Positions 7,731 through 29,914 of a stretch of DNA of 64,000 bases are shown here, in pieces. Both the position numbers and the translations under genes were made by a program. The notes below the pieces were generated by a model. It saw only the letters and a list, made by a program, of their open reading frames with translations, did not search any database and was not told the DNA's origin. Source of the DNA: Escherichia coli (GTDB lineage Bacteria; Pseudomonadota; Gammaproteobacteria; Enterobacterales; Enterobacteriaceae); assembly GCF_044324785.1 (NCBI RefSeq), contig NZ_CP172127.1. One strand, given 5' to 3'. Position 1 is the first letter of the stretch. Every line of letters starts with the position of its first letter.

Positions 7731-9269
7731 ATGCAACAACCTGTAGTTCGCGTTGGCGAATGGCTTGTTACTCCGTCCATAAACCAAATTAGCCGCAATG
7801 GGCGTCAACTTACCCTTGAGCCGAGATTAATCGATCTTCTGGTTTTCTTTGCTCAACACAGTGGCGAAGTACTTAGCAGGGATGAACTTATCGATAATGT
7901 CTGGAAGAGAAGTATTGTCACCAATCACGTTGTGACGCAGAGTATCTCAGAACTACGTAAGTCATTAAAAGATAATGATGAAGATAGTCCTGTCTATATC
8001 GCTACTGTACCAAAGCGCGGCTATAAATTAATGGTGCCGGTTATCTGGTACAGCGAAGAAGAGGGAGAGGAAATAATGCTATCTTCGCCTCCCCCTATAC
8101 CAGAGGCGGTTCCTGACACAGCTTCTCCCTCCCACAGTCTTAACATTCAAAACACCGCAACACCACCTGAACAATCCCCTGTTAAAAGCAAACGATTCAC
8201 TACCTTTTGGGTATGGTTTTTTTTCCTGTTGTCGTTAGGTATCTGTGTAGCACTGGTAGCGTTTTCAAGTCTTGATACACGTCTTCCTATGAGCAAATCG
8301 CGTATTTTGCTCAATCCACGCGATATTGACATTAATATGGTTAATAAGAGTTGTAACAGCTGGAGTTCTCCGTATCAGCTCTCTTACGCGATAGGCGTGG
8401 GTGATTTGGTGGCGACATCACTTAACACCTTCTCCACCTTTATGGTGCATGACAAAATCAACTACAACATTGATGAACCGAGCAGTTCCGGTAAAACATT
8501 ATCTATTGCGTTTGTTAATCAGCGCCAATACCGTGCTCAACAATGCTTTATGTCGGTAAAATTGGTAGACAATGCAGATGGTTCAACCATGCTGGATAAA
8601 CGTTATGTCATCACTAACGGTAATCAGCTGGCGATTCAAAATGATTTACTCCAGAGTTTATCAAAAGCGTTAAACCAACCATGGCCACAACGAATGCAGG
8701 AGATGCTCCAGCAAATTTTGCCGCATCGTGGTGCGTTATTAACTAATTTTTATCAGGCACATGATTATTTACTGCATGGTGATGATAAATCATTGGATCG
8801 TGCCAGTGAATTATTAGGTGAGATTGTTCAATCATCCCCAGAATTTACCTACGCGAGAGCAGAAAAAGCATTAGTTGATATCGTGCGCCATTCTCAACAT
8901 CCTTTAGCCGAAAAACAATTAGCAGCACTGAACACAGAAATAGATAACATTGTTACACTGCCGGAATTGAACAACCTGTCCATTATATATCAAATAAAAG
9001 CGGTCAGTGCCCTGGTAAAAGGTAAAACAGATGAGTCTTATCAGGCGATAAATACTGGCATTGATCTTGAAATGTCCTGGCTAAATTATGTGTTGCTTGG
9101 CAAGGTTTATGAAATGAAGGGGATGAACCGGGAAGCAGCTGATGCATATCTCACCGCCTTTAATTTACGCCCAGGGGCAAACACCCTTTACTGGATTGAA
9201 AATGGTATATTCCAGACTTCTGTTCCTTATGTTGTACCTTATCTCGACAAATTTCTCGCTTCAGAATAA
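7731..9269 (+). CDS. cadC: CadC, membrane-integrated ToxR-like transcriptional activator of the cad operon
   Basis: 512 aa, recognised as E. coli CadC; synteny with cadBA. Confidence 0.95.
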   Translation: MQQPVVRVGEWLVTPSINQISRNGRQLTLEPRLIDLLVFFAQHSGEVLSRDELIDNVWKRSIVTNHVVTQSISELRKSLKDNDEDSPVYIATVPKRGYKLMVPVIWYSEEEGEEIMLSSPPPIPEAVPDTASPSHSLNIQNTATPPEQSPVKSKRFTTFWVWFFFLLSLGICVALVAFSSLDTRLPMSKSRILLNPRDIDINMVNKSCNSWSSPYQLSYAIGVGDLVATSLNTFSTFMVHDKINYNIDEPSSSGKTLSIAFVNQRQYRAQQCFMSVKLVDNADGSTMLDKRYVITNGNQLAIQNDLLQSLSKALNQPWPQRMQEMLQQILPHRGALLTNFYQAHDYLLHGDDKSLDRASELLGEIVQSSPEFTYARAEKALVDIVRHSQHPLAEKQLAALNTEIDNIVTLPELNNLSIIYQIKAVSALVKGKTDESYQAINTGIDLEMSWLNYVLLGKVYEMKGMNREAADAYLTAFNLRPGANTLYWIENGIFQTSVPYVVPYLDKFLASE

Positions 9270-11048: not shown

Positions 11049-13196
11049 ATGAACGTTATTGCAATATTGAATCACATGGGGGTTTATTTTAAAGAAGAAC
11101 CCATCCGTGAACTTCATCGCGCGCTTGAACGTCTGAACTTCCAGATTGTTTACCCGAACGACCGTGACGACTTATTAAAACTGATCGAAAACAATGCGCG
11201 TCTGTGCGGCGTTATTTTTGACTGGGATAAATATAATCTCGAGCTGTGCGAAGAAATTAGCAAAATGAACGAGAACCTGCCGTTGTACGCGTTCGCTAAT
11301 ACGTATTCCACTCTCGATGTAAGCCTGAACGATCTGCGTTTACAGATTAGCTTCTTTGAATATGCGCTGGGTGCTGCTGAAGATATTGCTAATAAGATCA
11401 AGCAGACCACTGACGAATATATCAACACTATTCTGCCTCCGCTGACCAAAGCACTGTTTAAATATGTTCGTGAAGGTAAATATACTTTCTGTACTCCTGG
11501 TCACATGGGCGGTACTGCATTCCAGAAAAGCCCGGTAGGTAGCCTGTTCTATGATTTCTTTGGTCCGAACACCATGAAATCTGATATTTCCATTTCAGTA
11601 TCTGAACTGGGTTCTCTGCTGGATCACAGTGGTCCACACAAAGAAGCAGAACAGTATATCGCTCGCGTCTTTAACGCAGACCGCAGCTACATGGTGACCA
11701 ACGGTACTTCCACTGCGAACAAAATTGTTGGTATGTACTCTGCTCCGGCAGGCAGCACCATTCTGATTGACCGTAACTGCCACAAATCGCTGACCCACCT
11801 GATGATGATGAGCGATGTTACGCCAATCTATTTCCGCCCGACCCGTAACGCTTACGGTATTCTTGGTGGTATCCCACAGAGTGAATTCCAGCACGCTACC
11901 ATTGCTAAGCGCGTGAAAGAAACACCAAACGCAACCTGGCCGGTACATGCTGTAATTACCAACTCTACCTATGATGGTCTGCTGTACAACACCGACTTCA
12001 TCAAGAAAACACTGGATGTGAAATCCATCCACTTTGACTCCGCGTGGGTGCCTTACACCAACTTCTCACCGATTTACGAAGGTAAATGCGGTATGAGCGG
12101 TGGCCGTGTAGAAGGGAAAGTGATTTACGAAACCCAGTCTACTCACAAACTGCTGGCGGCGTTCTCTCAGGCTTCCATGATCCACGTTAAAGGTGACGTA
12201 AACGAAGAAACCTTTAACGAAGCCTACATGATGCACACCACCACTTCTCCGCACTACGGTATCGTGGCGTCCACTGAAACCGCTGCGGCGATGATGAAAG
12301 GCAATGCAGGTAAGCGTCTGATCAACGGTTCCATTGAACGTGCGATCAAATTCCGTAAAGAGATCAAACGTCTGAGAACGGAATCTGATGGCTGGTTCTT
12401 TGATGTATGGCAGCCGGATCATATCGATACGACTGAATGCTGGCCGCTGCGTTCTGACAGCACCTGGCACGGCTTCAAAAACATCGATAACGAGCACATG
12501 TATCTTGACCCGATCAAAGTCACCCTGCTGACTCCGGGGATGGAAAAAGACGGCACCATGAGCGACTTCGGTATTCCGGCCAGCATCGTGGCGAAATACC
12601 TCGACGAACATGGCATCGTTGTTGAGAAAACCGGTCCGTATAACCTGCTGTTCCTGTTCAGCATCGGTATCGATAAGACCAAAGCACTGAGCCTGCTGCG
12701 TGCTCTGACAGACTTCAAACGTGCGTTCGATCTGAACCTGCGTGTGAAAAACATGCTGCCGTCTCTGTATCGTGAAGATCCTGAATTCTATGAAAACATG
12801 CGTATTCAGGAACTGGCTCAGAATATCCACAAACTGATTGTTCACCACAATCTGCCGGATCTGATGTATCGCGCATTTGAAGTTCTGCCGACCATGGTAA
12901 TGACTCCGTATGCTGCGTTCCAGAAAGAGCTGCACGGTATGACCGAAGAAGTTTACCTCGACGAAATGGTAGGTCGTATTAACGCCAATATGATCCTTCC
13001 GTATCCGCCGGGAGTTCCTCTGGTAATGCCGGGTGAAATGATCACCGAAGAAAGCCGTCCGGTTCTGGAGTTCCTGCAGATGCTGTGTGAAATCGGCGCT
13101 CACTATCCGGGCTTTGAAACCGATATTCACGGTGCATACCGTCAGGCTGATGGCCGCTATACCGTTAAGGTATTGAAAGAAGAAAGCAAAAAATAA
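11049..13196 (+). CDS. cadA: Inducible lysine decarboxylase
   Basis: 715 aa from MNVIAILNHM; PLP-lysine region STHKLL; ORF track start at 11010 is an upstream in-frame extension. Confidence 0.95.
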   Translation: MNVIAILNHMGVYFKEEPIRELHRALERLNFQIVYPNDRDDLLKLIENNARLCGVIFDWDKYNLELCEEISKMNENLPLYAFANTYSTLDVSLNDLRLQISFFEYALGAAEDIANKIKQTTDEYINTILPPLTKALFKYVREGKYTFCTPGHMGGTAFQKSPVGSLFYDFFGPNTMKSDISISVSELGSLLDHSGPHKEAEQYIARVFNADRSYMVTNGTSTANKIVGMYSAPAGSTILIDRNCHKSLTHLMMMSDVTPIYFRPTRNAYGILGGIPQSEFQHATIAKRVKETPNATWPVHAVITNSTYDGLLYNTDFIKKTLDVKSIHFDSAWVPYTNFSPIYEGKCGMSGGRVEGKVIYETQSTHKLLAAFSQASMIHVKGDVNEETFNEAYMMHTTTSPHYGIVASTETAAAMMKGNAGKRLINGSIERAIKFRKEIKRLRTESDGWFFDVWQPDHIDTTECWPLRSDSTWHGFKNIDNEHMYLDPIKVTLLTPGMEKDGTMSDFGIPASIVAKYLDEHGIVVEKTGPYNLLFLFSIGIDKTKALSLLRALTDFKRAFDLNLRVKNMLPSLYREDPEFYENMRIQELAQNIHKLIVHHNLPDLMYRAFEVLPTMVMTPYAAFQKELHGMTEEVYLDEMVGRINANMILPYPPGVPLVMPGEMITEESRPVLEFLQMLCEIGAHYPGFETDIHGAYRQADGRYTVKVLKEESKK

Positions 13197-13209
13197 TTAG
13201 CTCGTACAA

Positions 13210-13238
13210 GGGAAGTGGCTTGCCACTTCCCTTTTTTG
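13210..13238 (+). terminator. Rho-independent terminator after cadA
   Basis: gggaagtgg cttg ccacttccc hairpin followed by ttttttg. Confidence 0.5.
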
Positions 13239-13254
13239 CTCATAAGGAGAACAC

Positions 13255-14712
13255 ATGAAAACACCCTCACAGCCGCGCGCGATATACTATATCGTGGCGA
13301 TCCAAATCTGGGAGTACTTCAGTTTTTACGGCATGCGTGCCTTACTCATTCTCTATCTCACCCATCAGCTTGGTTTTGATGATAACCATGCCATCAGCCT
13401 GTTCAGCGCATATGCTTCTCTGGTTTACGTTACCCCTATTCTCGGCGGCTGGCTTGCCGACCGCCTGCTCGGCAACCGCACTGCAGTGATTGCCGGCGCG
13501 CTGTTAATGACCCTTGGCCATGTGGTGCTGGGCATTGATACAAATTCAACTTTTAGCCTGTATCTGGCGCTGGCTATCATTATTTGTGGCTACGGTTTAT
13601 TCAAATCAAACATCAGCTGTTTACTTGGCGAGCTCTACGACGAGAACGATCATCGACGTGATGGCGGTTTTTCGCTGCTGTATGCTGCAGGCAATATCGG
13701 TTCTATCGCCGCCCCCATCGCCTGCGGCCTGGCTGCTCAGTGGTATGGATGGCATGTTGGCTTTGCCCTTGCGGGTGGCGGCATGTTTATCGGTTTGTTG
13801 ATTTTCTTAAGCGGTCATCGTCATTTCCAGTCCACGCGTAGTATGGATAAGAAAGCGCTCACTAGCGTCAAATTTGCCTTACCAGTATGGAGCTGGTTAG
13901 TGGTGATGCTCTGTTTAGCCCCAGTATTTTTTACCCTGCTGCTGGAGAACGACTGGTCCGGATATTTGCTGGCGATCGTTTGCCTCATTGCAGCACAAAT
14001 CATTGCCCGCATGATGATCAAATTCCCCGAACACCGCCGTGCTCTTTGGCAAATTGTATTGTTGATGTTTGTCGGGACGTTGTTCTGGGTACTGGCACAA
14101 CAGGGCGGCAGTACCATCAGCTTGTTTATCGATCGCTTTGTGAATCGTCAGGCATTCAATATTGAAGTACCTACAGCACTATTCCAGTCGGTGAATGCCA
14201 TTGCGGTGATGCTCGCTGGGGTTGTTCTGGCCTGGCTGGCGTCGCCAGAAAGCCGCGGCAATTCAGCATTGCGCGTCTGGCTGAAGTTTGCCTTTGGCTT
14301 ACTGCTGATGGCTTGTGGCTTTATGTTGCTGGCATTTGATGCCCGACATGCAGCGGCTGGCGGTCAAGCGTCAATGGGCGTGATGGTATCCGGGCTGGCG
14401 CTAATGGGCTTTGCTGAACTCTTTATTGACCCGGTGGCGATTGCGCAAATCACGCGTCTGAAAATGTCTGGCGTATTAACCGGTATTTATATGCTGGCAA
14501 CAGGCGCGGTCGCCAACTGGCTGGCAGGCGTCGTGGCACAGCAGACGACAGAGTCGCAAATTAGCGGTATGGCAATTGCCGCTTACCAGCGATTCTTTTC
14601 TCAGATGGGAGAGTGGACGTTGGCTTGTGTCGCGATCATCGTGGTATTGGCCTTTGCTACCCGTTTTCTGTTTAGCACGCCGACGAATATGATACAGGAG
14701 AGCAACGATTAA
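13255..14712 (+). CDS. dtpC: Proton-dependent di/tripeptide transporter DtpC (YjdL)
   Basis: 485 aa POT-family transporter in the K-12 position between cadA and lysU. Confidence 0.9.
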
Positions 14713-14948
14713 CTGTCGTAAAAACAATTGGTTATGAATAAATTAACTTTCAGTTTATCACACTAGCAAATCGAGATTAATAAGTCATTTAAACCATTTT
14801 TATGGTTATTTATTAGTGATATCAACTTGAGGTAAGCGTTAGTTTCGATAAGATAAACTGAGTTATTAATAGTCGAGGCAGATAATACAGTGTACCGATC
14901 TGTCTCTTTATCTACGCTAAATTGAAAGCTGGATTTAGAGGAACCAAA

Positions 14949-16466
14949 ATGTCTGAACGAGAAACACGGGGAGCCAATGAGGCTATTGATTTTAACGATG
15001 AACTGAGAAATCGCCGCGAAAAACTGGCGGCACTACGTCAGCAAGGTGTGGCGTTTCCCAATGATTTTCGCCGCGACCATACCTCTGACAAGTTGCACGA
15101 AGAGTTTGATGCGAAGGATAACCAGGAACTGGAATCCTTAAACATTGAAGTCTCGGTTGCTGGCCGAATGATGACCCGTCGTATCATGGGGAAAGCCTCC
15201 TTTGTAACGTTGCAGGATGTCGGTGGCCGTATTCAACTGTACGTTGCAAGAGATAGCCTGCCAGAAGGTGTTTATAACGATCAGTTTAAAAAATGGGATC
15301 TGGGTGACATTATCGGTGCCCGCGGTACGCTGTTTAAGACGCAAACGGGTGAGCTTTCCATTCACTGTACTGAGCTGCGCCTGCTGACTAAAGCACTACG
15401 TCCTTTACCAGATAAATTCCATGGTCTGCAGGATCAGGAAGTCCGTTATCGTCAACGTTATCTGGACCTCATCGCTAACGATAAATCCCGTCAAACGTTT
15501 GTTGTCCGTTCAAAAATTCTGGCCGCTATCCGTCAGTTCATGGTCGCGCGCGGCTTTATGGAAGTAGAAACCCCGATGATGCAGGTAATTCCAGGTGGGG
15601 CATCTGCTCGCCCGTTTATTACCCATCATAACGCTCTGGATTTAGATATGTACCTGCGTATCGCGCCGGAGCTGTATCTGAAACGTCTGGTTGTAGGCGG
15701 TTTTGAACGGGTATTCGAAATCAACCGTAACTTCCGTAATGAAGGTATTTCTGTTCGCCATAATCCTGAGTTCACAATGATGGAACTCTACATGGCGTAT
15801 GCGGATTACCACGATTTGATTGAACTGACGGAGTCACTGTTCCGCACCCTGGCACAAGAGGTTCTGGGTACCACTAAAGTCACTTATGGCGAGCATGTGT
15901 TTGATTTCGGCAAACCGTTTGAAAAACTCACCATGCGCGAAGCAATCAAAAAATATCGTCCAGAAACCGATATGGCCGACCTGGATAATTTTGATGCTGC
16001 TAAAGCATTAGCTGAATCTATCGGAATTACGGTAGAGAAAAGCTGGGGTCTGGGACGTATTGTTACGGAGATCTTTGATGAAGTGGCAGAAGCACATCTG
16101 ATTCAGCCAACCTTTATTACGGAATATCCGGCAGAAGTGTCCCCGCTGGCGCGCCGTAATGATGTTAACCCGGAAATCACCGACCGTTTTGAATTCTTCA
16201 TCGGTGGTCGTGAAATCGGTAATGGTTTTAGCGAATTAAACGATGCAGAAGATCAGGCTGAACGTTTCCAGGAACAGGTTAACGCTAAAGCTGCAGGTGA
16301 CGACGAAGCCATGTTCTATGACGAAGATTACGTGACTGCGCTGGAATATGGTCTGCCGCCAACCGCTGGTCTGGGTATTGGTATCGACCGAATGATTATG
16401 CTGTTTACAAACAGTCATACTATTCGCGACGTTATTCTCTTCCCGGCGATGCGCCCACAGAAATAA
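14949..16466 (+). CDS. lysU: Lysine-tRNA ligase, inducible isoform
   Basis: 505 aa from MSERETRG; class II aaRS; assigned as lysU rather than lysS by genomic context. Confidence 0.9.
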
Positions 16467-16480
16467 ATTTCACTTTAATG

Positions 16481-16515
16481 AACGAAGCAGTCAGGCGACT
16501 GCTTCGTTCGTCGTT
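16481..16515. terminator. Hairpin between convergent lysU and ghoT
   Basis: aacgaagcagtc aggc gactgcttcgtt perfect 12-bp stem. Confidence 0.4.
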
Positions 16516-16584
16516 CCGCAAATCCAGTTTTGAGGAGAGACGCTTCGTTTCACGATAACCAGCGGGTCCACTCAACTACAGCTC

Positions 16585-16758
16585 CTAAAAGAGAGAAAAA
16601 AGTAATGCCACAGGCAGACTCATTGGCCAGGTTATTCCTACCAGGAATGCACTAAGTAAACGAATATGTGTTTTCTCATGTGAGATAAACCAGATAATGA
16701 CAAAGGATATGTTCACACCAATCACATAAAAAATTAATATTTTAGAGAATAGTGCCAT
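16585..16758 (-). CDS. ghoT: GhoT membrane-lytic toxin (type V toxin-antitoxin system)
   Basis: 57-aa ORF translated by hand from the minus strand: MALFSKILIFYVIGVNISFVIIWFISHEKTHIRLLSAFLVGITWPMSLPVALLFSLF; below the ORF-track size cut-off. Confidence 0.8.
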   Translation of the reverse strand: MALFSKILIFYVIGVNISFVIIWFISHEKTHIRLLSAFLVGITWPMSLPVALLFSLF

Positions 16759-16785
16759 TTTTTATGTTCTTCTTATCCTTCCTGG

Positions 16786-17082
16786 CTACTTGTAAAACTG
16801 ACGGAAATAGTCATCAACTGTCATAATGTTGAGGTCAAAGTCAATATCCGGTAAGTCTAAGCATTTAAGCCTGATTAAATCTTCGATTTCACTTGCGGCT
16901 AATGATGTCGTTATTGCGAAGGAATTTTCATTCAATTGTCGTGGTATCCCATATTCATCAGCCACGATAGAGGAGAAATTCATATCATGCATCAATGATC
17001 TTAACCTTAAGAACACTGAGGAATAAGATGATGGATAATCAAAAGAAACAACATAAGTATTGAACTTGTTTTTACCTTCCAT
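16786..17082 (-). CDS. ghoS: GhoS antitoxin, endoribonuclease specific for ghoT mRNA (YjdK)
   Basis: 98 aa, immediately upstream of ghoT on the same strand. Confidence 0.8.
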   Translation of the reverse strand: MEGKNKFNTYVVSFDYPSSYSSVFLRLRSLMHDMNFSSIVADEYGIPRQLNENSFAITTSLAASEIEDLIRLKCLDLPDIDFDLNIMTVDDYFRQFYK

Positions 17083-17310
17083 AATATGACTCCTATCAAT
17101 TTTAAACGCTCTGGGGACGCAAAACTTATTAACCCCGAATGATGATTCTCATATAGGAGATATTCTTTTTTTTTTGCTCAGTAAAGGGGATGACTTGGGA
17201 CAAAAAAACGCTCTCTCTGACCATTCTTTGTGCATCCCCCTACCCTTCAGATGCTCACCTGCATCACACCGCGGAGAGCATGAAAAATATCGTGACTCTG
17301 TACTCTCCCA

Positions 17311-17583
17311 TCAACTGCGAATATCATCATACTCCCGTGTTTTATCAAATTCGTGTTTCGCAAATGGGCATAGTGGGATAATTTTTCGTTTTTCCCGACG
17401 CATTTTTTCCACGACTTTCGCAACCAGCTGTTTACCAATCCCCTGCCCTTTCAGGCTTTCATCGACATCGGTATGTTCGATAATCGCTAAATTCTCTCCG
17501 GTCGGCACAAAGACAATTTCAGCGATTTGCTTGCCCTGTTCGTCATTAATGTAAAATTTATTGTGGCCTTCGCGTATTTCCAT
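17311..17583 (-). CDS. yjdJ: GNAT-family acetyltransferase YjdJ
   Basis: 90 aa; K-12 position. Confidence 0.8.
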
Positions 17584-17594
17584 TTTACCCTCGC

Positions 17595-17825
17595 TTATTT
17601 ATGACGGTATTTCAGCGCGCCGCTCGGGCACGTATCAATCACTTTAACCACAGTGGCAACGTCGACTTCATCCGGCATGATCCACGGCTTTCGTTTGAGA
17701 TTAAATAACTTGCCGTTGCCACGTACGCAATTGCCAGAATGCTGACATATCGCAGTATTGAAATAGACATCGATCTTTTCGCCGGTATAACAGCGATAAC
17801 CCCCGTCCAGTAGCGCCCGATCCAT
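17595..17825 (-). CDS. yjdI: Small Cys-rich protein YjdI (DUF1271)
   Basis: 76 aa with conserved cysteines; K-12 position. Confidence 0.8.
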
Positions 17826-18005
17826 GACCTTCCCTCTCTCATCAGTATGATTATCGCTATAAGCATAGCCCCGGAATCTTCATACAGCACTGGCAGTTTC
17901 CGTTGCCAGAGTCTCTTCCCCTATATAGCCAATCATTCTTACTCCCTTTGAATTACCCGCCTCATCAGAGATAATGCTTAAGAAATTTGTCACACAAGGA
18001 AGCTG

Positions 18006-19637
18006 ATGAGACATTCATTGCCCTACCGCATGTTACGCAAACGTCCGATGAAATTGAGTACCACAGTGATCTTAATGGTCAGCGCGGTACTGTTCTCGGT
18101 GCTATTGGTGGTGCATCTGATTTACTTCTCGCAAATCAGTGATATGACGCGAGACGGGCTAGCCAACAAGGCACTGGCAGTAGCGCGTACCCTCGCCGAC
18201 TCGCCGGAAATCCGTCAGGGCTTGCAGAAAAAACCGCAGGAGAGTGGAATCCAGGCCATCGCGGAAGCCGTGCGCAAACGCAACGATCTGCTATTTATTG
18301 TCGTTACCGATATGCAAAGTCTTCGCTACTCGCATCCTGAAGCCCAGCGTATTGGTCAGCCATTTAAAGGTGATGACATCCTTAAAGCGCTGAATGGCGA
18401 AGAAAATGTCGCTATCAATCGCGGTTTTCTGGCGCAGGCTTTACGCGTATTTACCCCCATCTACGATGAAAATCATAAACAAATTGGCGTGGTGGCGATC
18501 GGCCTTGAGTTAAGTCGCGTGACCCAACAGATCAATGACAGTCGCTGGAGCATTATCTGGTCGGTACTATTTGGCATGCTGGTCGGACTGATTGGCACTT
18601 GCATTCTGGTTAAGGTACTGAAAAAAATCCTTTTCGGCCTGGAACCCTACGAAATCTCCACGCTGTTTGAGCAACGCCAGGCCATGTTGCAGTCTATCAA
18701 AGAAGGCGTCGTTGCCGTGGACGATCGCGGCGAGGTCACGCTAATCAACGATGCCGCACAAGAATTGCTGAATTACCGTAAGTCGCAGGACGATGAGAAA
18801 CTGTCGACGCTAAGCCACTCGTGGTCACAGGTGGTAGATGTCTCGGAAGTGTTACGCGACGGTACCCCGCGCCGCGACGAAGAGATTACGATTAAAGATC
18901 GGCTATTACTGATCAACACCGTTCCGGTGCGCAGTAATGGCGTTATCATCGGTGCCATTTCAACCTTCAGGGACAAAACTGAAGTACGTAAACTGATGCA
19001 GCGACTCGACGGTCTGGTCAACTATGCTGACGCACTTCGTGAACGATCCCACGAATTTATGAATAAATTGCATGTGATTCTCGGATTATTGCATCTGAAG
19101 AGTTATAAGCAGTTGGAAGATTACATTCTCAAAACAGCCAATAACTATCAGGAAGAGATTGGCTCTCTGCTGGGTAAGATCAAATCTCCGGTTATCGCTG
19201 GTTTTTTAATCAGCAAGATTAACCGCGCGACCGATTTAGGCCATACGCTGATTTTAAACAGTGAAAGCCAGCTGCCAGACAGCGGCAGTGAGGACCAGGT
19301 CGCGACGCTGATTACCACATTGGGAAATCTGATAGAAAACGCGCTGGAAGCATTAGGGCCGGAACCCGGTGGCGAAATTAGCGTAACATTGCACTACCGT
19401 CACGGCTGGCTGCACTGTGAAGTTAACGATGATGGACCGGGGATCGCACCCGATAAAATCGATCACATTTTTGACAAAGGTGTCTCGACAAAAGGAAGCG
19501 AGCGAGGCGTCGGTTTAGCACTTGTCAAACAACAGGTAGAAAATCTCGGCGGCAGCATCGCCGTGGAATCGGAACCCGGGATTTTCACACAATTTTTTGT
19601 CCAGATACCCTGGGACGGGGAGAGGTCGAACAGATGA
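18006..19637 (+). CDS. dcuS: C4-dicarboxylate sensor histidine kinase
   Basis: 543 aa; recognised DcuS sequence; overlaps dcuR start. Confidence 0.95.
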   Translation: MRHSLPYRMLRKRPMKLSTTVILMVSAVLFSVLLVVHLIYFSQISDMTRDGLANKALAVARTLADSPEIRQGLQKKPQESGIQAIAEAVRKRNDLLFIVVTDMQSLRYSHPEAQRIGQPFKGDDILKALNGEENVAINRGFLAQALRVFTPIYDENHKQIGVVAIGLELSRVTQQINDSRWSIIWSVLFGMLVGLIGTCILVKVLKKILFGLEPYEISTLFEQRQAMLQSIKEGVVAVDDRGEVTLINDAAQELLNYRKSQDDEKLSTLSHSWSQVVDVSEVLRDGTPRRDEEITIKDRLLLINTVPVRSNGVIIGAISTFRDKTEVRKLMQRLDGLVNYADALRERSHEFMNKLHVILGLLHLKSYKQLEDYILKTANNYQEEIGSLLGKIKSPVIAGFLISKINRATDLGHTLILNSESQLPDSGSEDQVATLITTLGNLIENALEALGPEPGGEISVTLHYRHGWLHCEVNDDGPGIAPDKIDHIFDKGVSTKGSERGVGLALVKQQVENLGGSIAVESEPGIFTQFFVQIPWDGERSNR

Positions 19638-20353
19638 TCAATGTATTAATTATCGATGACGACGCAATGGTCGCGGAGCTGAATCGCCGATACGTAGCAC
19701 AAATCCCAGGCTTTCAATGCTGTGGAACAGCCTCGACGCTGGAGAAAGCCAAAGAGATTATCTTCAATAGCGATACGCCTATCGACCTGATATTGCTCGA
19801 TATCTATATGCAAAAAGAGAACGGGCTCGATTTACTGCCTGTCCTGCATAACGCGCGTTGCAAAAGTGATGTGATTGTCATCTCCTCCGCAGCCGATGCG
19901 GCAACCATTAAAGATTCGCTGCATTACGGTGTCGTGGATTACCTGATCAAACCCTTCCAGGCTTCCCGCTTTGAAGAGGCGCTCACCGGCTGGCGGCAAA
20001 AGAAAATTGCGCTGGAAAAACATCAGTATTATGACCAGGCCGAGCTTGATCAGCTAATCCACGGCAGCAGCTCCAACGAGCAGGATCCTCGTCGCTTGCC
20101 AAAAGGCTTAACGCCGCAGACGTTACGCACGCTGTGCCAGTGGATTGACGCGCATCAGGACTATGAGTTTTCAACCGACGAGCTGGCCAACGAGGTTAAC
20201 ATATCGCGTGTTTCCTGCCGTAAATACCTCATCTGGCTGGTCAACTGCCACATCTTGTTCACCAGTATCCATTATGGCGTTACGGGGCGTCCGGTTTACC
20301 GTTACCGTATTCAGGCAGAACACTACTCACTGCTGAAACAATATTGCCAATAA
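19634..20353 (+). CDS. dcuR: C4-dicarboxylate response regulator
   Basis: 239 aa; receiver domain; ATGA overlap with dcuS. Confidence 0.95.
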   Translation: MINVLIIDDDAMVAELNRRYVAQIPGFQCCGTASTLEKAKEIIFNSDTPIDLILLDIYMQKENGLDLLPVLHNARCKSDVIVISSAADAATIKDSLHYGVVDYLIKPFQASRFEEALTGWRQKKIALEKHQYYDQAELDQLIHGSSSNEQDPRRLPKGLTPQTLRTLCQWIDAHQDYEFSTDELANEVNISRVSCRKYLIWLVNCHILFTSIHYGVTGRPVYRYRIQAEHYSLLKQYCQ

Positions 20354-20923
20354 CGGATCGCTGGTTATCTGTAAGTAATAATTATTACTGTAATGCAAAA
20401 TATTCCTGGCACAAGTTACATTCTTCATCAGTAAAACTTGTGCCAGATCAAATATAATTATCCCTCCATCATCGTTAAAAATTAATATCTCTTCAGATGA
20501 ACGGTGTTTTTAATTTCAAAACGCTAACAAAAGTTAATTAACTATTATGTCACCCGCATTATGTGTATTTTTACCCACAAATGGGTAGATCAGATTAATC
20601 TATAAACCTAATGACATCTGCCCTGAGAACAAAAAATAGACCAATAAATATCAATAAGATAGAAGCAAACAAAACATTAACATCTGCGCAGTACAAACTA
20701 TAAACCCATCGCCAGAGAGTCATTCTCTCTGAAAAAGCCGCTTATCACAGTGCATAAATTTGCCGCTGCTTTAATCAGCCAATATTCACTGTGAGGTATT
20801 TGCTAAAGCCGGTAACGACCAAACGGATATTTAGTCAGGCTCTGAAAACAGTTCATACAAAACAGAACGTGACTGTGATCTATTCAGCAAAAATTTAAAT
20901 AGGATTATCGCGAGGGTTCACAC

Positions 20924-22264
20924 ATGTTATTTACTATCCAACTTATCATAATACTGATATGTCTGTTTTATGGTGCCAGAAAGGGTGGTATCGCGCTGGG
21001 TTTATTAGGCGGTATCGGTCTGGTCATTCTGGTCTTCGTCTTCCACCTTCAGCCAGGTAAACCACCGGTTGATGTCATGCTGGTTATCATTGCGGTGGTG
21101 GCGGCATCGGCGACCTTGCAAGCTTCGGGCGGTCTTGATGTCATGCTGCAAATTGCCGAGAAGCTGCTGCGCCGCAACCCGAAATATGTCTCAATTGTCG
21201 CGCCGTTTGTGACCTGTACGCTGACCATTCTTTGCGGTACGGGTCATGTGGTTTACACCATTCTGCCGATCATCTACGACGTTGCTATTAAGAACAACAT
21301 CCGTCCGGAACGTCCAATGGCGGCAAGTTCTATTGGTGCACAGATGGGGATTATCGCCAGTCCGGTGTCGGTTGCGGTCGTATCTCTGGTTGCGATGCTG
21401 GGTAATGTCACCTTTGATGGTCGCCATCTTGAGTTCCTCGACCTGCTGGCAATCACCATTCCATCGACGTTAATCGGTATCCTGGCGATCGGTATCTTCA
21501 GCTGGTTCCGCGGTAAAGATCTGGATAAAGACGAAGAGTTCCAGAAATTCATCTCCGTACCGGAAAACCGTGAGTATGTTTACGGTGATACCGCGACGCT
21601 GCTGGATAAAAAACTGCCGAAAAGCAACTGGCTGGCAATGTGGATCTTCCTCGGGGCAATCGCTGTAGTCGCCCTTCTTGGTGCTGATTCGGACCTGCGT
21701 CCATCCTTCGGCGGCAAACCGCTGTCGATGGTACTGGTTATTCAGATGTTTATGCTGCTGACCGGGGCGCTGATTATTATCCTGACCAAAACCAATCCCG
21801 CGTCTATCTCAAAAAACGAAGTCTTCCGTTCCGGTATGATCGCCATCGTGGCGGTGTACGGTATCGCATGGATGGCAGAAACCATGTTCGGTGCGCATAT
21901 GTCTGAAATTCAGGGCGTACTGGGCGAAATGGTGAAAGAGTATCCGTGGGCCTATGCCATTGTTCTGCTGCTGGTTTCCAAGTTTGTAAACTCTCAGGCT
22001 GCGGCGCTGGCGGCGATTGTTCCGGTCGCGCTGGCGATCGGCGTTGATCCGGCATACATCGTGGCTTCAGCACCGGCTTGCTACGGTTATTACATCCTGC
22101 CGACTTATCCGAGCGATCTGGCAGCGATTCAGTTTGACCGTTCCGGCACCACCCACATCGGTCGCTTCGTCATCAACCACAGCTTTATTCTGCCGGGGTT
22201 GATTGGTGTGAGCGTATCGTGCGTCTTCGGCTGGATCTTCGCCGCGATGTACGGGTTCTTATAA
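20924..22264 (+). CDS. dcuB: Anaerobic C4-dicarboxylate transporter
   Basis: 446 aa; preceded by 570-bp regulatory region. Confidence 0.95.
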
Positions 22265-22341
22265 ATGCACTTTGCGTGCCGCCCGTGACTACGCGGCACG
22301 CCATTTTCGAATAACAAATACAGAGTTACAGGCTGGAAGCT

Positions 22342-23988
22342 ATGTCAAACAAACCCTTTATCTACCAGGCACCTTTCCCGATGGGGAAAGACAATACCGA
22401 ATACTATCTACTCACTTCCGATTACGTTAGCGTTTCCGACTTCGACGGCGAAACCATTCTGAAAGTGGAACCAGAAGCCCTGACCCTGCTGGCGCAGCAA
22501 GCCTTTCACGACGCTTCTTTCATGCTCCGCCCGGCCCACCAGAAACAGGTCGCGGCTATTCTTCACGATCCAGAAGCCAGCGAAAACGACAAGTACGTGG
22601 CGCTGCAATTCTTAAGAAACTCCGAAATCGCCGCCAAAGGCGTACTGCCGACCTGCCAGGACACCGGCACCGCGATCATCGTCGGTAAAAAAGGCCAGCG
22701 CGTGTGGACCGGTGGCGGTGATGAAGAAGCGCTGTCGAAAGGCGTCTATAACACCTATATCGAGGATAACCTGCGCTATTCACAGAACGCGCCGCTGGAC
22801 ATGTATAAAGAGGTCAACACCGGCACGAACCTGCCTGCGCAAATCGACCTGTACGCGGTAGATGGCGATGAGTACAAATTCCTTTGCGTTGCGAAAGGCG
22901 GCGGCTCTGCCAACAAAACCTATCTCTACCAGGAAACCAAAGCCCTGCTGACTCCCGGCAAACTGAAAAACTTCCTCGTTGAGAAAATGCGTACCCTCGG
23001 TACTGCAGCCTGCCCGCCGTACCATATCGCGTTTGTGATTGGCGGTACGTCTGCGGAAACCAACCTGAAAACCGTCAAGTTAGCAAGCGCTCACTATTAC
23101 GATGAACTGCCGACGGAAGGGAACGAACATGGTCAGGCGTTCCGCGATGTCCAGCTGGAACAGGAACTGCTGGAAGAGGCCCAGAAACTCGGTCTTGGCG
23201 CGCAGTTTGGCGGTAAATACTTCGCGCACGACATTCGCGTTATCCGTCTGCCACGTCACGGCGCATCCTGCCCGGTAGGCATGGGCGTCTCCTGCTCCGC
23301 TGACCGTAACATTAAAGCGAAAATCAACCGCGAAGGTATCTGGATCGAAAAACTGGAACACAATCCAGGCCAGTACATTCCACAAGAACTGCGTCAGGCC
23401 GGTGAAGGCGAAGCGGTGAAAGTCGACCTTAACCGCCCGATGAAAGAGATCCTCGCCCAGCTTTCGCAATACCCGGTATCCACCCGCTTGTCGCTCACCG
23501 GCACCATTATCGTGGGTCGAGATATTGCACACGCCAAGCTGAAAGAGCTGATTGACGCCGGTAAAGAACTGCCGCAGTACATCAAAGATCACCCGATCTA
23601 CTACGCGGGTCCGGCGAAAACGCCTGCCGGTTATCCATCAGGTTCACTTGGCCCAACCACCGCAGGTCGTATGGACTCCTACGTGGATCTGCTGCAATCC
23701 CACGGCGGCAGCATGATCATGCTGGCGAAAGGCAACCGCAGCCAGCAGGTTACCGACGCGTGCCATAAACACGGCGGCTTTTACCTCGGTAGCATCGGCG
23801 GTCCAGCGGCGGTACTGGCGCAGCAGAGCATCAAGCATCTGGAATGCGTCGCTTATCCGGAGCTGGGTATGGAAGCTATCTGGAAAATCGAAGTAGAAGA
23901 TTTCCCGGCGTTTATCCTGGTCGATGACAAAGGTAACGACTTCTTCCAGCAAATCGTCAACAAACAGTGCGCGAACTGCACTAAGTAA
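22342..23988 (+). CDS. fumB: Class I fumarate hydratase (anaerobic)
   Basis: 548 aa; assigned fumB rather than fumA by position downstream of dcuB. Confidence 0.9.
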
Positions 23989-24110
23989 CCTCTTCGGCCC
24001 AGCGCCTGGCAGCATGCTGCCAGGTGATCCCCCTGGGCCACCTCTTTTGCGATTGTAATTTCACGCTTGCTGGTGAATAGTCAGTATTTTCCCTGACTTG
24101 CGAACTCACC

Positions 24111-27502: not shown

Positions 27503-29770
27503 ATGAAAGTATTAATTGTTGAAAGCGAGTTTCTCCATCAAGACACCTGGGTCGGTAACGCCGTTGAGCGTCTGGCAGATGCTTTAAGCCAGCAAAATGT
27601 TACCGTGATTAAATCCACCTCCTTTGATGATGGTTTTGCCATTCTCTCTTCAAACGAAGCCATTGACTGCCTGATGTTCAGCTATCAAATGGAACATCCG
27701 GACGAACATCAAAACGTCAGACAATTGATCGGTAAGCTTCATGAGCGTCAACAAAACGTGCCGGTCTTCCTGTTGGGCGATCGGGAAAAAGCCCTCGCCG
27801 CAATGGACCGGGATCTGCTGGAGCTTGTCGATGAATTCGCCTGGATTCTGGAAGATACCGCCGACTTTATCGCCGGACGCGCCGTTGCCGCGATGACCCG
27901 CTACCGCCAGCAACTGTTGCCGCCACTGTTCAGCGCGCTGATGAAATATAGCGACATCCATGAATATTCCTGGGCAGCGCCAGGCCACCAGGGTGGCGTT
28001 GGTTTTACCAAAACACCCGCCGGACGTTTCTACCATGACTACTATGGTGAAAATCTGTTCCGCACCGACATGGGCATCGAACGAACTTCCCTCGGTTCTT
28101 TGCTTGACCATACTGGCGCATTTGGCGAAAGCGAAAAATATGCCGCACGCGTATTTGGTGCCGATCGCTCCTGGTCGGTAGTCGTCGGTACTTCCGGCTC
28201 TAACCGCACCATCATGCAGGCTTGCATGACCGATAACGATGTCGTGGTCGTTGACCGTAACTGCCATAAATCCATCGAACAAGGCTTGATGCTGACAGGC
28301 GCGAAACCGGTCTACATGGTGCCAAGCCGCAACCGCTACGGCATTATCGGGCCAATCTATCCGCAGGAAATGCAACCTGAAACCTTGCAGAAGAAAATCA
28401 GTGAAAGCCCGCTGACTAAAGACAAAGCCGGGCAAAAACCGTCTTACTGCGTAGTGACCAACTGTACCTATGACGGCGTGTGTTATAACGCTAAAGAAGC
28501 GCAGGATCTGCTGGAAAAAACCTCCGATCGTCTGCACTTTGACGAAGCCTGGTACGGCTATGCACGTTTCAACCCGATCTATGCCGATCACTATGCCATG
28601 CGCGGCGAACCTGGCGATCACAACGGTCCTACCGTTTTCGCCACCCACTCCACCCACAAACTACTGAATGCACTGTCACAGGCCTCTTATATTCATGTAC
28701 GTGAAGGTCGTGGGGCGATTAACTTCTCCCGCTTCAACCAGGCCTACATGATGCATGCCACCACCTCCCCGCTGTATGCCATCTGTGCATCCAACGACGT
28801 GGCAGTGTCGATGATGGACGGCAACAGCGGCCTGTCACTGACCCAGGAAGTGATCGACGAAGCGGTTGATTTCCGTCAGGCGATGGCGCGGCTGTATAAA
28901 GAGTTCACCGCTGACGGTAGCTGGTTCTTCAAACCGTGGAACAAAGAAGTCGTCACCGACCCACAAACCGGCAAAACCTATGACTTTGCTGACGCACCAA
29001 CCAAACTGCTGACCACCGTTCAGGACTGCTGGGTCATGCATCCGGGCGAAAGCTGGCACGGCTTCAAAGATATTCCGGATAACTGGAGTATGCTCGACCC
29101 GATTAAAGTCAGCATCCTTGCTCCGGGAATGGGTGAAGATGGTGAACTGGAAGAAACCGGTGTTCCGGCGGCGCTGGTCACTGCCTGGCTTGGTCGCCAC
29201 GGCATTGTGCCTACCCGCACCACTGACTTCCAAATCATGTTCCTGTTCTCTATGGGCATAACCCGTGGGAAATGGGGGACTCTGGTTAACACCCTTTGCT
29301 CCTTCAAACGCCACTATGACGCCAACACACCGCTGGCGCAGGTGATGCCGGAACTTGTTGAACAATATCCTGACACTTACGCGAACATGGGGATTCACGA
29401 TCTGGGTGACACCATGTTTGCCTGGCTGAAAGAAAACAACCCTGGCGCACGGTTGAACGAAGCCTATTCCGGCCTGCCGGTGGCGGAAATCACCCCGCGT
29501 GAAGCGTACAACGCGATTGTCGACAACAATGTCGAACTGGTATCCATTGAAAATCTGCCAGGACGCATCGCGGCAAACTCAGTTATCCCGTATCCGCCAG
29601 GAATCCCGATGCTGCTGTCTGGTGAAAACTTCGGCGATAAAAACAGTCCGCAAGTAAGTTATTTACGCTCGCTGCAATCCTGGGACCATCATTTCCCTGG
29701 ATTTGAACACGAAACAGAAGGGACAGAAATTATTGACGGTATTTACCACGTTATGTGTGTGAAAGCGTAA
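27503..29770 (+). CDS. adiA: Biodegradative arginine decarboxylase
   Basis: 755 aa; paralogous to CadA. Confidence 0.9.
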   Translation: MKVLIVESEFLHQDTWVGNAVERLADALSQQNVTVIKSTSFDDGFAILSSNEAIDCLMFSYQMEHPDEHQNVRQLIGKLHERQQNVPVFLLGDREKALAAMDRDLLELVDEFAWILEDTADFIAGRAVAAMTRYRQQLLPPLFSALMKYSDIHEYSWAAPGHQGGVGFTKTPAGRFYHDYYGENLFRTDMGIERTSLGSLLDHTGAFGESEKYAARVFGADRSWSVVVGTSGSNRTIMQACMTDNDVVVVDRNCHKSIEQGLMLTGAKPVYMVPSRNRYGIIGPIYPQEMQPETLQKKISESPLTKDKAGQKPSYCVVTNCTYDGVCYNAKEAQDLLEKTSDRLHFDEAWYGYARFNPIYADHYAMRGEPGDHNGPTVFATHSTHKLLNALSQASYIHVREGRGAINFSRFNQAYMMHATTSPLYAICASNDVAVSMMDGNSGLSLTQEVIDEAVDFRQAMARLYKEFTADGSWFFKPWNKEVVTDPQTGKTYDFADAPTKLLTTVQDCWVMHPGESWHGFKDIPDNWSMLDPIKVSILAPGMGEDGELEETGVPAALVTAWLGRHGIVPTRTTDFQIMFLFSMGITRGKWGTLVNTLCSFKRHYDANTPLAQVMPELVEQYPDTYANMGIHDLGDTMFAWLKENNPGARLNEAYSGLPVAEITPREAYNAIVDNNVELVSIENLPGRIAANSVIPYPPGIPMLLSGENFGDKNSPQVSYLRSLQSWDHHFPGFEHETEGTEIIDGIYHVMCVKA

Positions 29771-29887: not shown

Positions 29888-29914
29888 GCGCGGTCCCACC
29901 CCGCGCTTTTTTTT
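29888..29914 (+). terminator. Rho-independent terminator after adiA
   Basis: gcgcgg tcccacc ccgcgc followed by tttttttt. Confidence 0.5.

What the first reader, a model, noticed from the sequence alone, without database searches (positions are those of the whole stretch)
17160..17180. T10 homopolymer tract in the ghoS upstream region
A run of ten T at 17166-17175 lies about 85 bp upstream of the ghoS start, between ghoS and yjdJ. Homopolymers of this length are prone to slipped-strand length variation and could modulate the ghoST promoter.
Basis: seen in the sequence. Interest (0 to 1): 0.15.

Follow-up and report, generated by a model that had tools for sequence, protein, structure and literature searches.

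The report
Variable-length T run upstream of ghoS
The ten-T run upstream of the ghoS antitoxin gene is real and its length differs between E. coli lineages, but each length is inherited stably within a lineage and the run sits in a leader or spacer rather than in a recognisable promoter, so it looks like an ordinary slippage-prone repeat, not a genetic switch.

Summary
T10 lies at 17166-17175 (A10 on the ghoS-sense strand), 84-93 nt upstream of the ghoS ATG, between yjdJ and ghoS.

It is the longest homopolymer in the window. It is not statistically remarkable: 24 of 100 dinucleotide shuffles contain a run of ten.

Tract length varies across 5,426 complete E. coli genomes: T8 about 3,597, T10 about 1,409, T9 about 131, T11 16, T7 6, T12 1. 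The alleles follow clones. K-12, B and O157 carry T8. Nissle-like strains carry T10. S88, UM146 and APEC O1-type strains carry T9. This is not phase variation.

No usable sigma-70 -35/-10 pair flanks or follows the tract. The best promoter-like sites lie more than 110 nt upstream, at the yjdJ stop codon. The tract has two neighbours on the ghoS-sense strand:
- On the upstream side, a conserved hairpin (17186-17240) with a published K-12 RNA 3' end at its base.
- On the downstream side, a CUCC segment able to pair with the ghoS Shine-Dalgarno sequence.

On the opposite strand the U-run lacks a convincing hairpin and has no mapped 3' end.

Best reading: a nearly neutral, slippage-prone poly(dA:dT) spacer in the ghoST leader. 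An effect on ghoS expression is untested. Interest is low.

The parts
17166..17175 (.). Poly(dA:dT) tract: T10 on the + strand, A10 on the ghoS-sense (-) strand; -93..-84 from the ghoS ATG
   Evidence: Length alleles T7-T12 across E. coli. A8/A9/A10/interrupted in other Escherichia.
17186..17240 (-). Conserved leader/3'-UTR hairpin (GGGGGAUG...CAUCCCC, containing a U7) just upstream of the tract on the ghoS-sense strand
   Evidence: MFE -23.6 kcal/mol, z -1.7 to -2.5. It is the most conserved part of the intergenic region, with 84% invariant columns in 6 Escherichia lineages against 72% for the whole spacer.
17180..17180 (-). Position equivalent to the published K-12 Term-seq RNA 3' end (MG1655 4352488, + strand, 96 nt before the ghoS ATG): the last U of UUUACU at the hairpin base, 4 nt before the A-tract
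   Evidence: Adams et al. 2021, PMC7815308, supplementary files 1 and 3. Mapped onto the K-12 sequence. The position in the window itself is inferred by homology.
17153..17164 (-). AAUAUCUCCUAU, immediately 3' of the A-tract: a possible anti-Shine-Dalgarno arm
   Evidence: Pairs with 17096-17083 in the MFE fold (fourth sequence). The arm is nearly invariant in 6 lineages. The fold is not better than shuffles (z -0.76), so this is only a possibility.
17083..17096 (-). ghoS ribosome-binding region (AUAGGAGUCAUAUU, GGAG at 17093-17090), partner of the anti-SD arm
17286..17314 (-). Candidate sigma-70 promoter TTGATG-17-GATATT overlapping the yjdJ stop codon (prediction only)
   Evidence: PWM score 8.7, 99.98th percentile of window positions. 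The hexamers and the 17-nt spacing are kept while the spacer sequence diverges in other Escherichia. No TSS data were obtained.
17320..17348 (-). Candidate sigma-70 promoter TTGATA-17-GATATT inside the 3' end of yjdJ (prediction only)
   Evidence: PWM 10.5.
17129..17224 (-). Mechanical 31-codon ORF that crosses the tract (..EQKKKN..). Its frame and stop depend on tract length. Judged not a conserved protein.
   Evidence: A10 gives 31 aa with the stop 45 nt before the ghoS ATG; A9 gives 24 aa; A8 in K-12 gives 71 aa running 77 nt into ghoS. No Pfam hit. No annotation in MG1655.
16786..17082 (-). ghoS (type V antitoxin endoribonuclease)
   Evidence: Pfam PF11080, E 2.7e-40; RefSeq annotation of homologous loci.
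16585..16758 (-). ghoT (membrane toxin)
   Evidence: Pfam PF10753, E 8.9e-26.
17311..17583 (-). yjdJ (GNAT acetyltransferase), the upstream gene on the same strand

Best explanation
The T10 is a simple poly(dA:dT) repeat in the untranslated spacer between yjdJ and ghoS. It gains and loses single bases by replication slippage, and these changes are tolerated because the tract is a linker, not a spaced recognition element. Shown here: the length polymorphism, its clonal inheritance, the conserved flanks, and the lack of an adjacent core promoter or terminator hairpin. Inferred: the ghoS-sense transcript, whether yjdIJ read-through or a transcript from a promoter-like site at the yjdJ stop, contains a conserved hairpin, then (in K-12) a mapped RNA 3' end, then the A-run, then a CUCC segment and the ghoS Shine-Dalgarno. 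The A-run would be a single-stranded A-rich linker in that leader. Changing it from 8 to 10 nt shifts the spacing by 2 nt, with little or no effect on ghoST expression. It is a lineage marker, not a phase-variation switch.
For: (1) Census of 5,426 complete genomes with 68-73-nt queries whose 61 flanking bases are invariant in the sampled alignment. The exact-length counts (the >=99% identity band, minus about 6 partial hits per search) are T8 about 3,597, T10 about 1,409, T9 about 131, T11 16, T7 6 and T12 1, out of 5,328 full-length places. This is a +/-1-step ladder around two main alleles, as slippage predicts.
(2) Alleles follow clones. About 93 of the T9 genomes share one 92-nt haplotype and include S88, UM146, APEC O1, IMT5155 and ATCC 11775. 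K-12, B, O157 and O145 records carry T8. Nissle 1917 and FDAARGOS_536 carry T10.
(3) Other Escherichia lineages carry A8, A9, A10 or an interrupted AAAGGAAAAA at the same place, within conserved flanks. A pure run of fixed length is therefore not required.
(4) There is no promoter-like pair next to the tract, no Rfam family, and the tract is unpaired in the predicted folds.
(5) K-12 Term-seq places an RNA 3' end 5 nt upstream of the A-run on the sense strand and none on the other strand within 4352400-4352599 (PMC7815308).
(6) Control: the T8 of a GC-hairpin terminator at 29907-29914 shows no indel in 29 of 30 genomes sampled across the ranking. Constrained runs stay fixed while this one drifts.
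Against: The flanks of the tract are well conserved, and an A-rich run of 8-10 is retained in every Escherichia lineage seen, so the tract may not be entirely free of function. The ghoS transcription start site was not obtained, so a non-consensus or activator-dependent promoter downstream of the tract cannot be excluded. No expression data compare T8, T9 and T10 strains. Two assemblies of strain NC101 differ (T9 against T11). That is either assembly error or a real rapid change.
Confidence: 0.65

Rival explanations
1. Leader tuning. The A-run is part of the ghoST 5' leader, and its length sets either the spacing between the leader hairpin and the anti-SD/SD pairing, or the frame and stop of a leader ORF starting at AUG 17224. 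Lineages with A8, A9 or A10 would then translate ghoS with different efficiency.
For: A conserved hairpin with a K-12 RNA 3' end lies just 5' of the tract. A CUCCUAU segment just 3' of it can pair with AUAGGAG of the ghoS RBS. An AUG-initiated ORF of at least 24 codons crossing the tract is open in all nine sequences examined, and its stop moves from 65 nt or 45 nt before the ghoS ATG (A9, A10) to 77 nt inside ghoS (A8 in K-12, A11).
Against: The anti-SD fold is no better than shuffles (z -0.76). The ORF's AUG is base-paired inside the hairpin, with a poor SD spacing. Its changes among lineages are mostly non-synonymous, by manual comparison of the codons, and its N-terminal conservation is explained by the hairpin. 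It is not annotated in MG1655, and no paper found mentions a uORF or small protein there. There is no evidence that the leader is transcribed from its own promoter.
Confidence: 0.15
2. Promoter modulator. The A/T run acts as an UP-like or curved-DNA element, or as a spacer of the ghoST promoter, and length changes alter transcription initiation.
For: A-tracts upstream of core promoters can stimulate transcription (established knowledge of UP elements). The tract lies at the edge of an AT-rich (33-37% GC) ghoST segment. Its length does vary.
Against: There is no sigma-70-like core promoter at the right distance. The scan finds none between 17083 and 17310. The best PWM pairs touching the tract score 5.6-6.2 bits. 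TTTACT...GAATAT would have a spacer of 12-14 nt. The segment GAGAAT downstream is not conserved in other Escherichia (GAGAAG, GTGAAG). Lengths are clonally fixed, not switching.
Confidence: 0.1
3. Antisense terminator or pause. On the + strand the run is U10 in RNA that reads through from lysU, antisense to ghoT and ghoS. It helps to stop or pause that transcription before it enters yjdJ.
For: lysU (14922..16466, +) has no predicted intrinsic terminator before the tract. K-12 data place one of the stronger Rho-dependent termination regions on that strand at 4352446, about window 17222, 47 nt past the run (Rho score 10.97, p 3.5e-50, PMC7815308 supplementary file 2). RNase III cleavage was reported in the ghoS transcript (PMC6212723), which is compatible with sense/antisense duplexes.
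Against: The hairpin preceding U10 is weak (-4.7 kcal/mol, z +0.38, three G-C pairs with a 5-nt bulge) and was not picked up by the terminator scan. No Term-seq 3' end is listed on that strand at 4352400-4352599. The drop in coverage is abolished by bicyclomycin, so it is Rho-dependent, not intrinsic. The Rho-region coordinate has a resolution of hundreds of nt.
Confidence: 0.05
4. Sequencing artefact. The apparent length differences are homopolymer miscalls in long-read assemblies.
For: Two assemblies of NC101 give T9 and T11. The rare T7 calls come largely from one pig-ETEC project.
Against: The three main alleles are each carried by hundreds to thousands of genomes from many projects, and they are linked to flanking SNP haplotypes. 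The T9 genomes include older finished genomes (APEC O1, S88, UM146).
Confidence: 0.05

Closest known systems
Polymorphic mononucleotide simple-sequence repeats in E. coli non-coding DNA (Gur-Arie et al. 2000 Genome Res; Diamant et al. 2004 Appl Environ Microbiol; cited from my own knowledge, not retrieved here)
   Same: A perfect A/T run of at least 8 in an intergenic region, with conserved flanks, length alleles differing by single units, and alleles that track lineages so they can serve as typing markers.
   Different: Nothing essential. As far as I could find, this particular locus has not been described. It happens to sit in the leader of a toxin-antitoxin operon.
Phase-variable (contingency) homopolymers in promoters, e.g. 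Neisseria porA/opc poly-G/C spacers, Bordetella fim poly-C, Mycoplasma vlp poly-A (own knowledge)
   Same: A homopolymer upstream of a gene, whose length can change by slippage.
   Different: In those systems the run lies between -35 and -10 or next to an activator site, lengths differ among sibling colonies, and expression switches on and off. Here no core promoter flanks the run, and alleles are stable across whole clones. E. coli is also mismatch-repair proficient, and a run of only 8-10 is shorter than typical contingency tracts (own knowledge).
UP elements and A-tract curvature upstream of sigma-70 promoters (own knowledge)
   Same: An A-rich run on the non-template strand upstream of a gene.
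   Different: No -35/-10 pair is found 40-60 nt downstream, and no TSS data are available.
U-tract of intrinsic terminators (example in this window: GC hairpin + T8 at 29888-29914)
   Same: A T-run on one strand following an inverted repeat.
   Different: The preceding hairpin is AU-rich and weak (-4.7 kcal/mol). No 3' end is mapped there in K-12. The true terminator's T8 is length-invariant, whereas this run is not.
Transcriptional-slippage tracts (runs of at least 9 A/T used in IS elements and Shigella mxiE; Baranov et al. 2005, own knowledge)
   Same: The A10 length is in the range where E. coli RNA polymerase slips.
   Different: Those tracts lie inside coding sequences and restore a reading frame. 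This one is non-coding, and the ORF that crosses it is not conserved as a protein.

Membership tests
Polymorphic mononucleotide SSR locus | Perfect homopolymer of at least 8 in non-coding DNA | tested here: met
   T10 at 17166-17175, between the yjdJ stop (17311) and the ghoS start (17082).
Polymorphic mononucleotide SSR locus | Length alleles differing by single units among strains, with conserved flanks | tested here: met
   T7 6, T8 about 3,597, T9 about 131, T10 about 1,409, T11 16, T12 1, with 61 identical flanking bases. Alignment.
Phase-variable promoter homopolymer (contingency locus) | The tract lies in the -35/-10 spacer, or at a fixed distance from a core promoter or activator site | tested here: not met
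   No promoter-like site at 17083-17310. The only pairs spanning the tract score 5.6-6.2 bits. TTTACT/GAATAT would have a 12-14-nt spacer.
Phase-variable promoter homopolymer (contingency locus) | Length differs among very close relatives or within a clone | tested here: not met
   T9 is shared by S88, UM146, APEC O1-type genomes on one haplotype. T8 is in all K-12, B and O157 records listed. The single exception is NC101, T9 against T11 in two assemblies, which may be assembly error.
Phase-variable promoter homopolymer (contingency locus) | Expression of the downstream gene switches with tract length | not testable with these tools
   No expression data were found for T8, T9 and T10 strains.
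Intrinsic terminator (+ strand, U10 as the U-tract) | A stable G+C-rich stem-loop ending 0-2 nt before the U-run | tested here: not met
   The best hairpin is -4.7 kcal/mol, z +0.38. The terminator scan found 0 sites in 16400-18100.
Intrinsic terminator (+ strand, U10 as the U-tract) | RNA 3' ends map in the U-run | tested here: not met
   K-12 Term-seq lists no 3' end at 4352400-4352599 other than 4352488 on the opposite strand. This holds for the T8 allele only.
UP element | An A/T-rich block at -40 to -60 of a mapped or consensus core promoter | tested here: inconclusive
   No consensus core promoter 40-60 nt downstream. The ghoS TSS was not obtainable: the Thomason 2015 data are not held, and other supplements had no entry.
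Coding slippage tract / small protein | An ORF across the tract conserved as a protein, with the frame kept or restored | tested here: not met
   Three different frames and C-termini occur among the alleles. Changes among lineages are mostly non-synonymous by manual codon comparison. No Pfam hit.
Known RNA family | A match to an Rfam covariance model | tested here: not met
   No hit with E of 1 or less in 16300-18100 on either strand.

The most novel reading that the evidence does not exclude
The A-run is a lineage-specific tuner of a type V toxin-antitoxin operon. By setting the frame and stop of a leader ORF (AUG at 17224), or the spacing between the leader hairpin/attenuator and the anti-SD:SD pairing, A8, A9 and A10 alleles would give different GhoS translation, and hence different GhoS:GhoT balance, in K-12-like, ST95-like and Nissle-like lineages. 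The ORF stops 45 or 65 nt before ghoS with A10 or A9, and runs 77 nt into ghoS with A8.
Probability: 0.06. Interest if true: 0.5.

Novelty: new member of a known kind. Interest (0 to 1): 0.1.

Why it matters
As it stands it matters little. It is one more slippage-prone intergenic A/T run, and its alleles mark E. coli lineages: T8 in most, T10 in Nissle-like strains, T9 in S88/APEC O1-like strains. It is a useful caution that homopolymer length at this site can differ between assemblies of one strain (NC101). The context is of more interest than the tract. The yjdJ-ghoS spacer holds a conserved hairpin with a mapped RNA 3' end, a possible anti-SD element, and convergent Rho-terminated read-through from lysU. 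None of these is part of the published picture of ghoST regulation. If tract length did alter ghoS translation, natural lineages would differ in the set-point of a toxin-antitoxin system, but nothing found here shows that.

Tried and rejected
(1) I looked for a published ghoS transcription start. The Wang 2012, Wang 2013 and Thomason 2015 papers are not held. The supplements of Cappable-seq, SMRT-Cappable-seq, ROSE, Shigella dRNA-seq and Kim 2012 contain no ghoS entry or coordinate. Two other papers hold no supplements. Text searches for ghoS with promoter or TSS terms gave nothing relevant, and the 'ghoST' search only matched 'ghost'.
(2) A Rfam search of 16300-18100 gave no family.
(3) An intrinsic terminator on the + strand was rejected: the hairpin is weak and no 3' end is mapped there.
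(4) The small protein across the tract was rejected as a conserved protein. No literature mentions it.
(5) A whole-spacer RNA structure is not supported: the fold energy is no better than shuffles (z -0.19). Only the hairpin stands out. Its few substitutions are one-sided or disruptive, so there is no covariation support (manual reading).
(6) The genome-contig scan with GhoS found only four Escherichia lineages and one contaminant contig, too few for structure statistics.
(7) NCBIfam has no model for GhoS or GhoT; Pfam does.

Full report
**1. What is in the sequence**

The window reads GGAGATATTC-TTTTTTTTTT-GCTCAGTAAA at 17156-17185, and the run of ten T occupies 17166-17175. The neighbouring ORFs on the - strand are:
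- ghoT, 16585..16758 (Pfam Toxin_GhoT_OrtT, E 8.9e-26)
- ghoS, 16786..17082 (Pfam GhoS, E 2.7e-40)
- yjdJ, 17311..17583 (GNAT)
- yjdI, 17595..17825 (Fer4_19)

lysU (14922..16466) and dcuS (18006..) are on the + strand. RefSeq annotation of near-identical loci gives the same names.

On the ghoS-sense strand the tract is therefore A10 at -93..-84 from the ATG, and it lies 136 nt past the yjdJ stop.

It is the only homopolymer of 9 or more bases in the 64 kb. A ten-base A/T run is nevertheless not improbable for this composition: dinucleotide shuffles give a mean of 0.37 per window, and 24 of 100 shuffles have at least one.

The window is an Escherichia coli-type sequence. It is not close to any of the 5,426 complete RefSeq genomes; the best match is 99.1% over 12 kb.

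**2. Does the length vary?**

Yes. An alignment of six RefSeq loci with the window shows T8 (a K-12-like strain, O157:H7, 94-3024), T9 (ST95-32) and T10 (window, FDAARGOS_536, CUVET19-1993). The 25 bases to the left and 36 bases to the right of the tract are identical in all of them.

I used those invariant flanks with T7 to T12 as 68-73-nt blastn queries. At that length a single gap drops identity below 99%, so the '>=99%' band counts genomes with exactly that tract length. Each search also includes about 6 partial hits in that band. This follows from the T7, T11 and T12 searches, where only 6, 16 and 1 full-length 100% rows account for bands of 12, 21 and 7.

| Tract | Raw '>=99%' count | After correction |
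|---|---|---|
| T7 | 12 | 6 |
| T8 | 3,603 | about 3,597 |
| T9 | 137 | about 131 |
| T10 | 1,415 | about 1,409 |
| T11 | 21 | 16 |
| T12 | 7 | 1 |

These counts are out of 5,328 full-length places. About 168 genomes (3%) have a substitution in the flanks or in the tract. The locus is absent, or not matched, in about 90 of the 5,426 genomes.

**3. Is it phase variation?**

The pattern says no. The alleles are linked to flanking SNP haplotypes and to clones:
- A T9 query carrying the haplotype of the T10 strains is matched exactly by about 93 genomes. They include S88, UM146, APEC O1, IMT5155, several O1/O2:K1 APEC strains and ATCC 11775. By my own knowledge these are ST95-complex strains.
- All K-12, B, O157, O145 and ATCC 8739 records that appeared in the listings carry T8.
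- Nissle 1917 carries T10.
- The remaining roughly 38 T9 genomes, and the T7, T11 and T12 genomes, are +/-1 steps from the main alleles, as expected from occasional slippage.

One warning sign is strain NC101: one assembly has T9 and another has T11. Some rare calls may therefore be homopolymer assembly errors. Hundreds to thousands of genomes per allele, and the inclusion of older finished genomes, rule this out for the main alleles.

As a control, the T8 that forms the U-tract of a GC-hairpin terminator at 29907-29914 shows no indel in 29 of 30 genomes sampled across the ranking.

Other Escherichia lineages show that an A-rich run is retained at this spot but without a fixed length or purity:
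- E. whittamii: A8
- Escherichia sp. E1V33: A9 followed by T
- a divergent 'E. coli' representative: A10
- Escherichia sp. MOD1-EC7003: an interrupted AAAGGAAAAA

**4. Is there a promoter next to it?**

None was found. The consensus scan finds no sigma-70-like site between 17083 and 17310. Its only - strand hit is TTGATA-17-GATATT at 17348..17320, inside yjdJ.

A position-weight scan that I wrote ranks that site first (10.5 bits) and TTGATG-17-GATATT at 17314..17286 second (8.7 bits). Pairs that touch or span the tract score 5.6-6.2 bits, a level reached by about 0.2% of all positions.

The most natural-looking pair, TTTACT (17185-17180) and GAATAT (17165-17160), would be separated by 14 nt with A10 and by 12 nt with A8. 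Both spacings are outside the working range. The GAGAAT downstream of the tract is not conserved in other Escherichia.

In the 17314..17286 candidate, both hexamers and the 17-nt spacing are retained while the spacer sequence diverges. This is suggestive, but the -35 hexamer overlaps the yjdJ stop codon. I could not obtain any published TSS for ghoS (see the section on what was tried and rejected).

**5. What does flank the tract?**

On the sense strand, 17240-17186 folds into a hairpin: GGGGGAUG...CAUCCCC, with ACAAAGAA paired to a U7. Its energy is -23.6 kcal/mol, with z of -1.7 to -2.5. This is the most conserved part of the spacer, with 84% invariant columns in six lineages, compared with 72% for the whole spacer and 74% for yjdJ.

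Adams et al. 2021 (PMC7815308) list a Term-seq RNA 3' end at MG1655 4352488 (+), 96 nt before the ghoS ATG, in two growth conditions. On the K-12 sequence this is the last T of CCCCTTTACT at the base of the hairpin, 5 nt before the first A of the K-12 A8 tract at 4352493-4352500. The equivalent window position is 17180.

Immediately 3' of the tract, AAUAUCUCCUAU (17164-17153) can pair with AUAGGAG..AUAUU (17096-17083), which contains the ghoS Shine-Dalgarno sequence. Both arms are almost invariant, but the fold is no better than shuffles (z -0.76).

The tract itself is unpaired in every prediction. It therefore looks like a single-stranded A-rich linker between a hairpin (a terminator, attenuator or protected 3' end) and the ghoS translation-initiation region.

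**6. The other strand**

On the + strand the run would be U10 in RNA coming from lysU, antisense to ghoT and ghoS. The same paper lists a strong Rho-dependent termination region on that strand at 4352446, about window 17222 (Rho score 10.97, p 3.5e-50). Such read-through evidently exists in K-12.

The tract does not behave as an intrinsic terminator for that RNA:
- The stem before U10 is weak (-4.7 kcal/mol, z +0.38).
- The terminator scan finds nothing.
- No 3' end is listed on that strand at 4352400-4352599.
- The stop is bicyclomycin-sensitive, so it depends on Rho.

RNase III cleavage in the ghoS transcript has been reported (PMC6212723).

**7. The ORF across the tract**

A 31-codon ORF (17224..17129) runs through the tract (..EQKKKN..). 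It is open for at least 24 codons in all nine sequences examined. A8, A9 and A10 put it in three different frames, with stops 77 nt inside ghoS, 65 nt before the ghoS ATG, or 45 nt before it.

Several points argue against a conserved protein:
- Its AUG lies in the paired part of the hairpin.
- The differences among lineages are mostly non-synonymous, by my manual comparison of the codons.
- It has no Pfam match.
- It is not annotated in MG1655.

I treat it as not a conserved protein. A purely regulatory leader ORF is not excluded, and that is the 'novel case'.

**8. Verdict**

The tract is length-polymorphic, but as stable lineage alleles generated by rare slippage, not as a switch. It is not part of a recognisable ghoST promoter.
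- The best-supported description is a nearly neutral poly(dA:dT) spacer in the ghoST leader or yjdIJ 3' region (confidence about 0.65).
- The rivals are leader or uORF tuning (0.15), an UP-like promoter effect (0.1), an antisense pause or terminator (0.05), and sequencing artefact (0.05, which applies only to rare calls).
- It is an ordinary new example of a known kind, the polymorphic mononucleotide repeats of E. coli non-coding DNA. That literature is cited from my own knowledge.
- Interest is low (0.1).

Noticed in passing
window 17186-17240 (- strand), 3' end equivalent at 17180: A conserved hairpin in the yjdJ-ghoS spacer, the best-conserved part of that spacer across six Escherichia lineages. 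A published K-12 Term-seq RNA 3' end (MG1655 4352488 +) maps to its base. It could be a yjdIJ terminator, a ghoST leader attenuator, or the end of a roughly 100-nt RNA. There is no Rfam match.
   Followed up: partly
window 17286-17314 and 17320-17348 (- strand): Two promoter-like sites (TTGATG-17-GATATT and TTGATA-17-GATATT) at and just before the yjdJ stop codon. In the first, the hexamers and the 17-nt spacing are kept while the spacer diverges in other Escherichia. If active, ghoST would have a 5' leader of about 200 nt.
   Followed up: partly
window 17153-17164 and 17083-17096 (- strand): A CUCCUAU-containing segment just 3' of the A-run is complementary to the ghoS Shine-Dalgarno region (AUAGGAG), and both arms are nearly invariant. 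This is possible translational occlusion of the antitoxin gene, but the fold is not better than shuffles.
   Followed up: partly
window 16466-17250 (+ strand): No intrinsic terminator is predicted after lysU. Published K-12 data put a strong Rho-dependent termination region (score 10.97) on this strand at about 17222, so lysU read-through is antisense to the whole ghoT-ghoS operon. RNase III cleavage in the ghoS transcript has also been reported.
   Followed up: partly
L014 (NZ_CP047057.1) and L015 (NZ_CP072787.1): Two complete assemblies of the same strain, E. coli NC101, differ at this tract (T9 against T11). This is either a homopolymer assembly error or a real change in the laboratory.
   Followed up: partly
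window 16600-17200: The ghoT-ghoS segment is 33-37% G+C, against 45-50% in lysU and yjdJ/yjdI. This is consistent with a foreign or H-NS-type AT-rich module. The tract lies at its upstream edge.
   Followed up: no
L011:1400-1500 (Escherichia sp. MOD1-EC7003): This lineage has a 53-nt insertion between the anti-SD segment and the ghoS Shine-Dalgarno, and an interrupted tract (AAAGGAAAAA).
   Followed up: no
L013 (NZ_BOQB01000692.1, labelled Bacillus sanguinis): A 306-nt contig in a Bacillus assembly encodes residues 44-98 of GhoS at 100% identity. It is almost certainly E. coli contamination of that assembly.
   Followed up: no
window 29888-29914 (+ strand): GCGCGGTCCCACCCCGCGC followed by T8, after the ORF ending at 29770: a canonical intrinsic terminator. 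It was used as a control, and its T8 shows no indel in 29 of 30 E. coli genomes sampled.
   Followed up: yes
window 12000-24000: No complete RefSeq E. coli genome matches this window better than 99.1% over 12 kb, or 98.7% over the 228-nt spacer. The source is a lineage not represented among the 5,426 complete genomes.
   Followed up: partly
window 8217-8224: The other T8 run in the window lies inside the 512-aa ORF 7731..9269, so it is a coding homopolymer.
   Followed up: no
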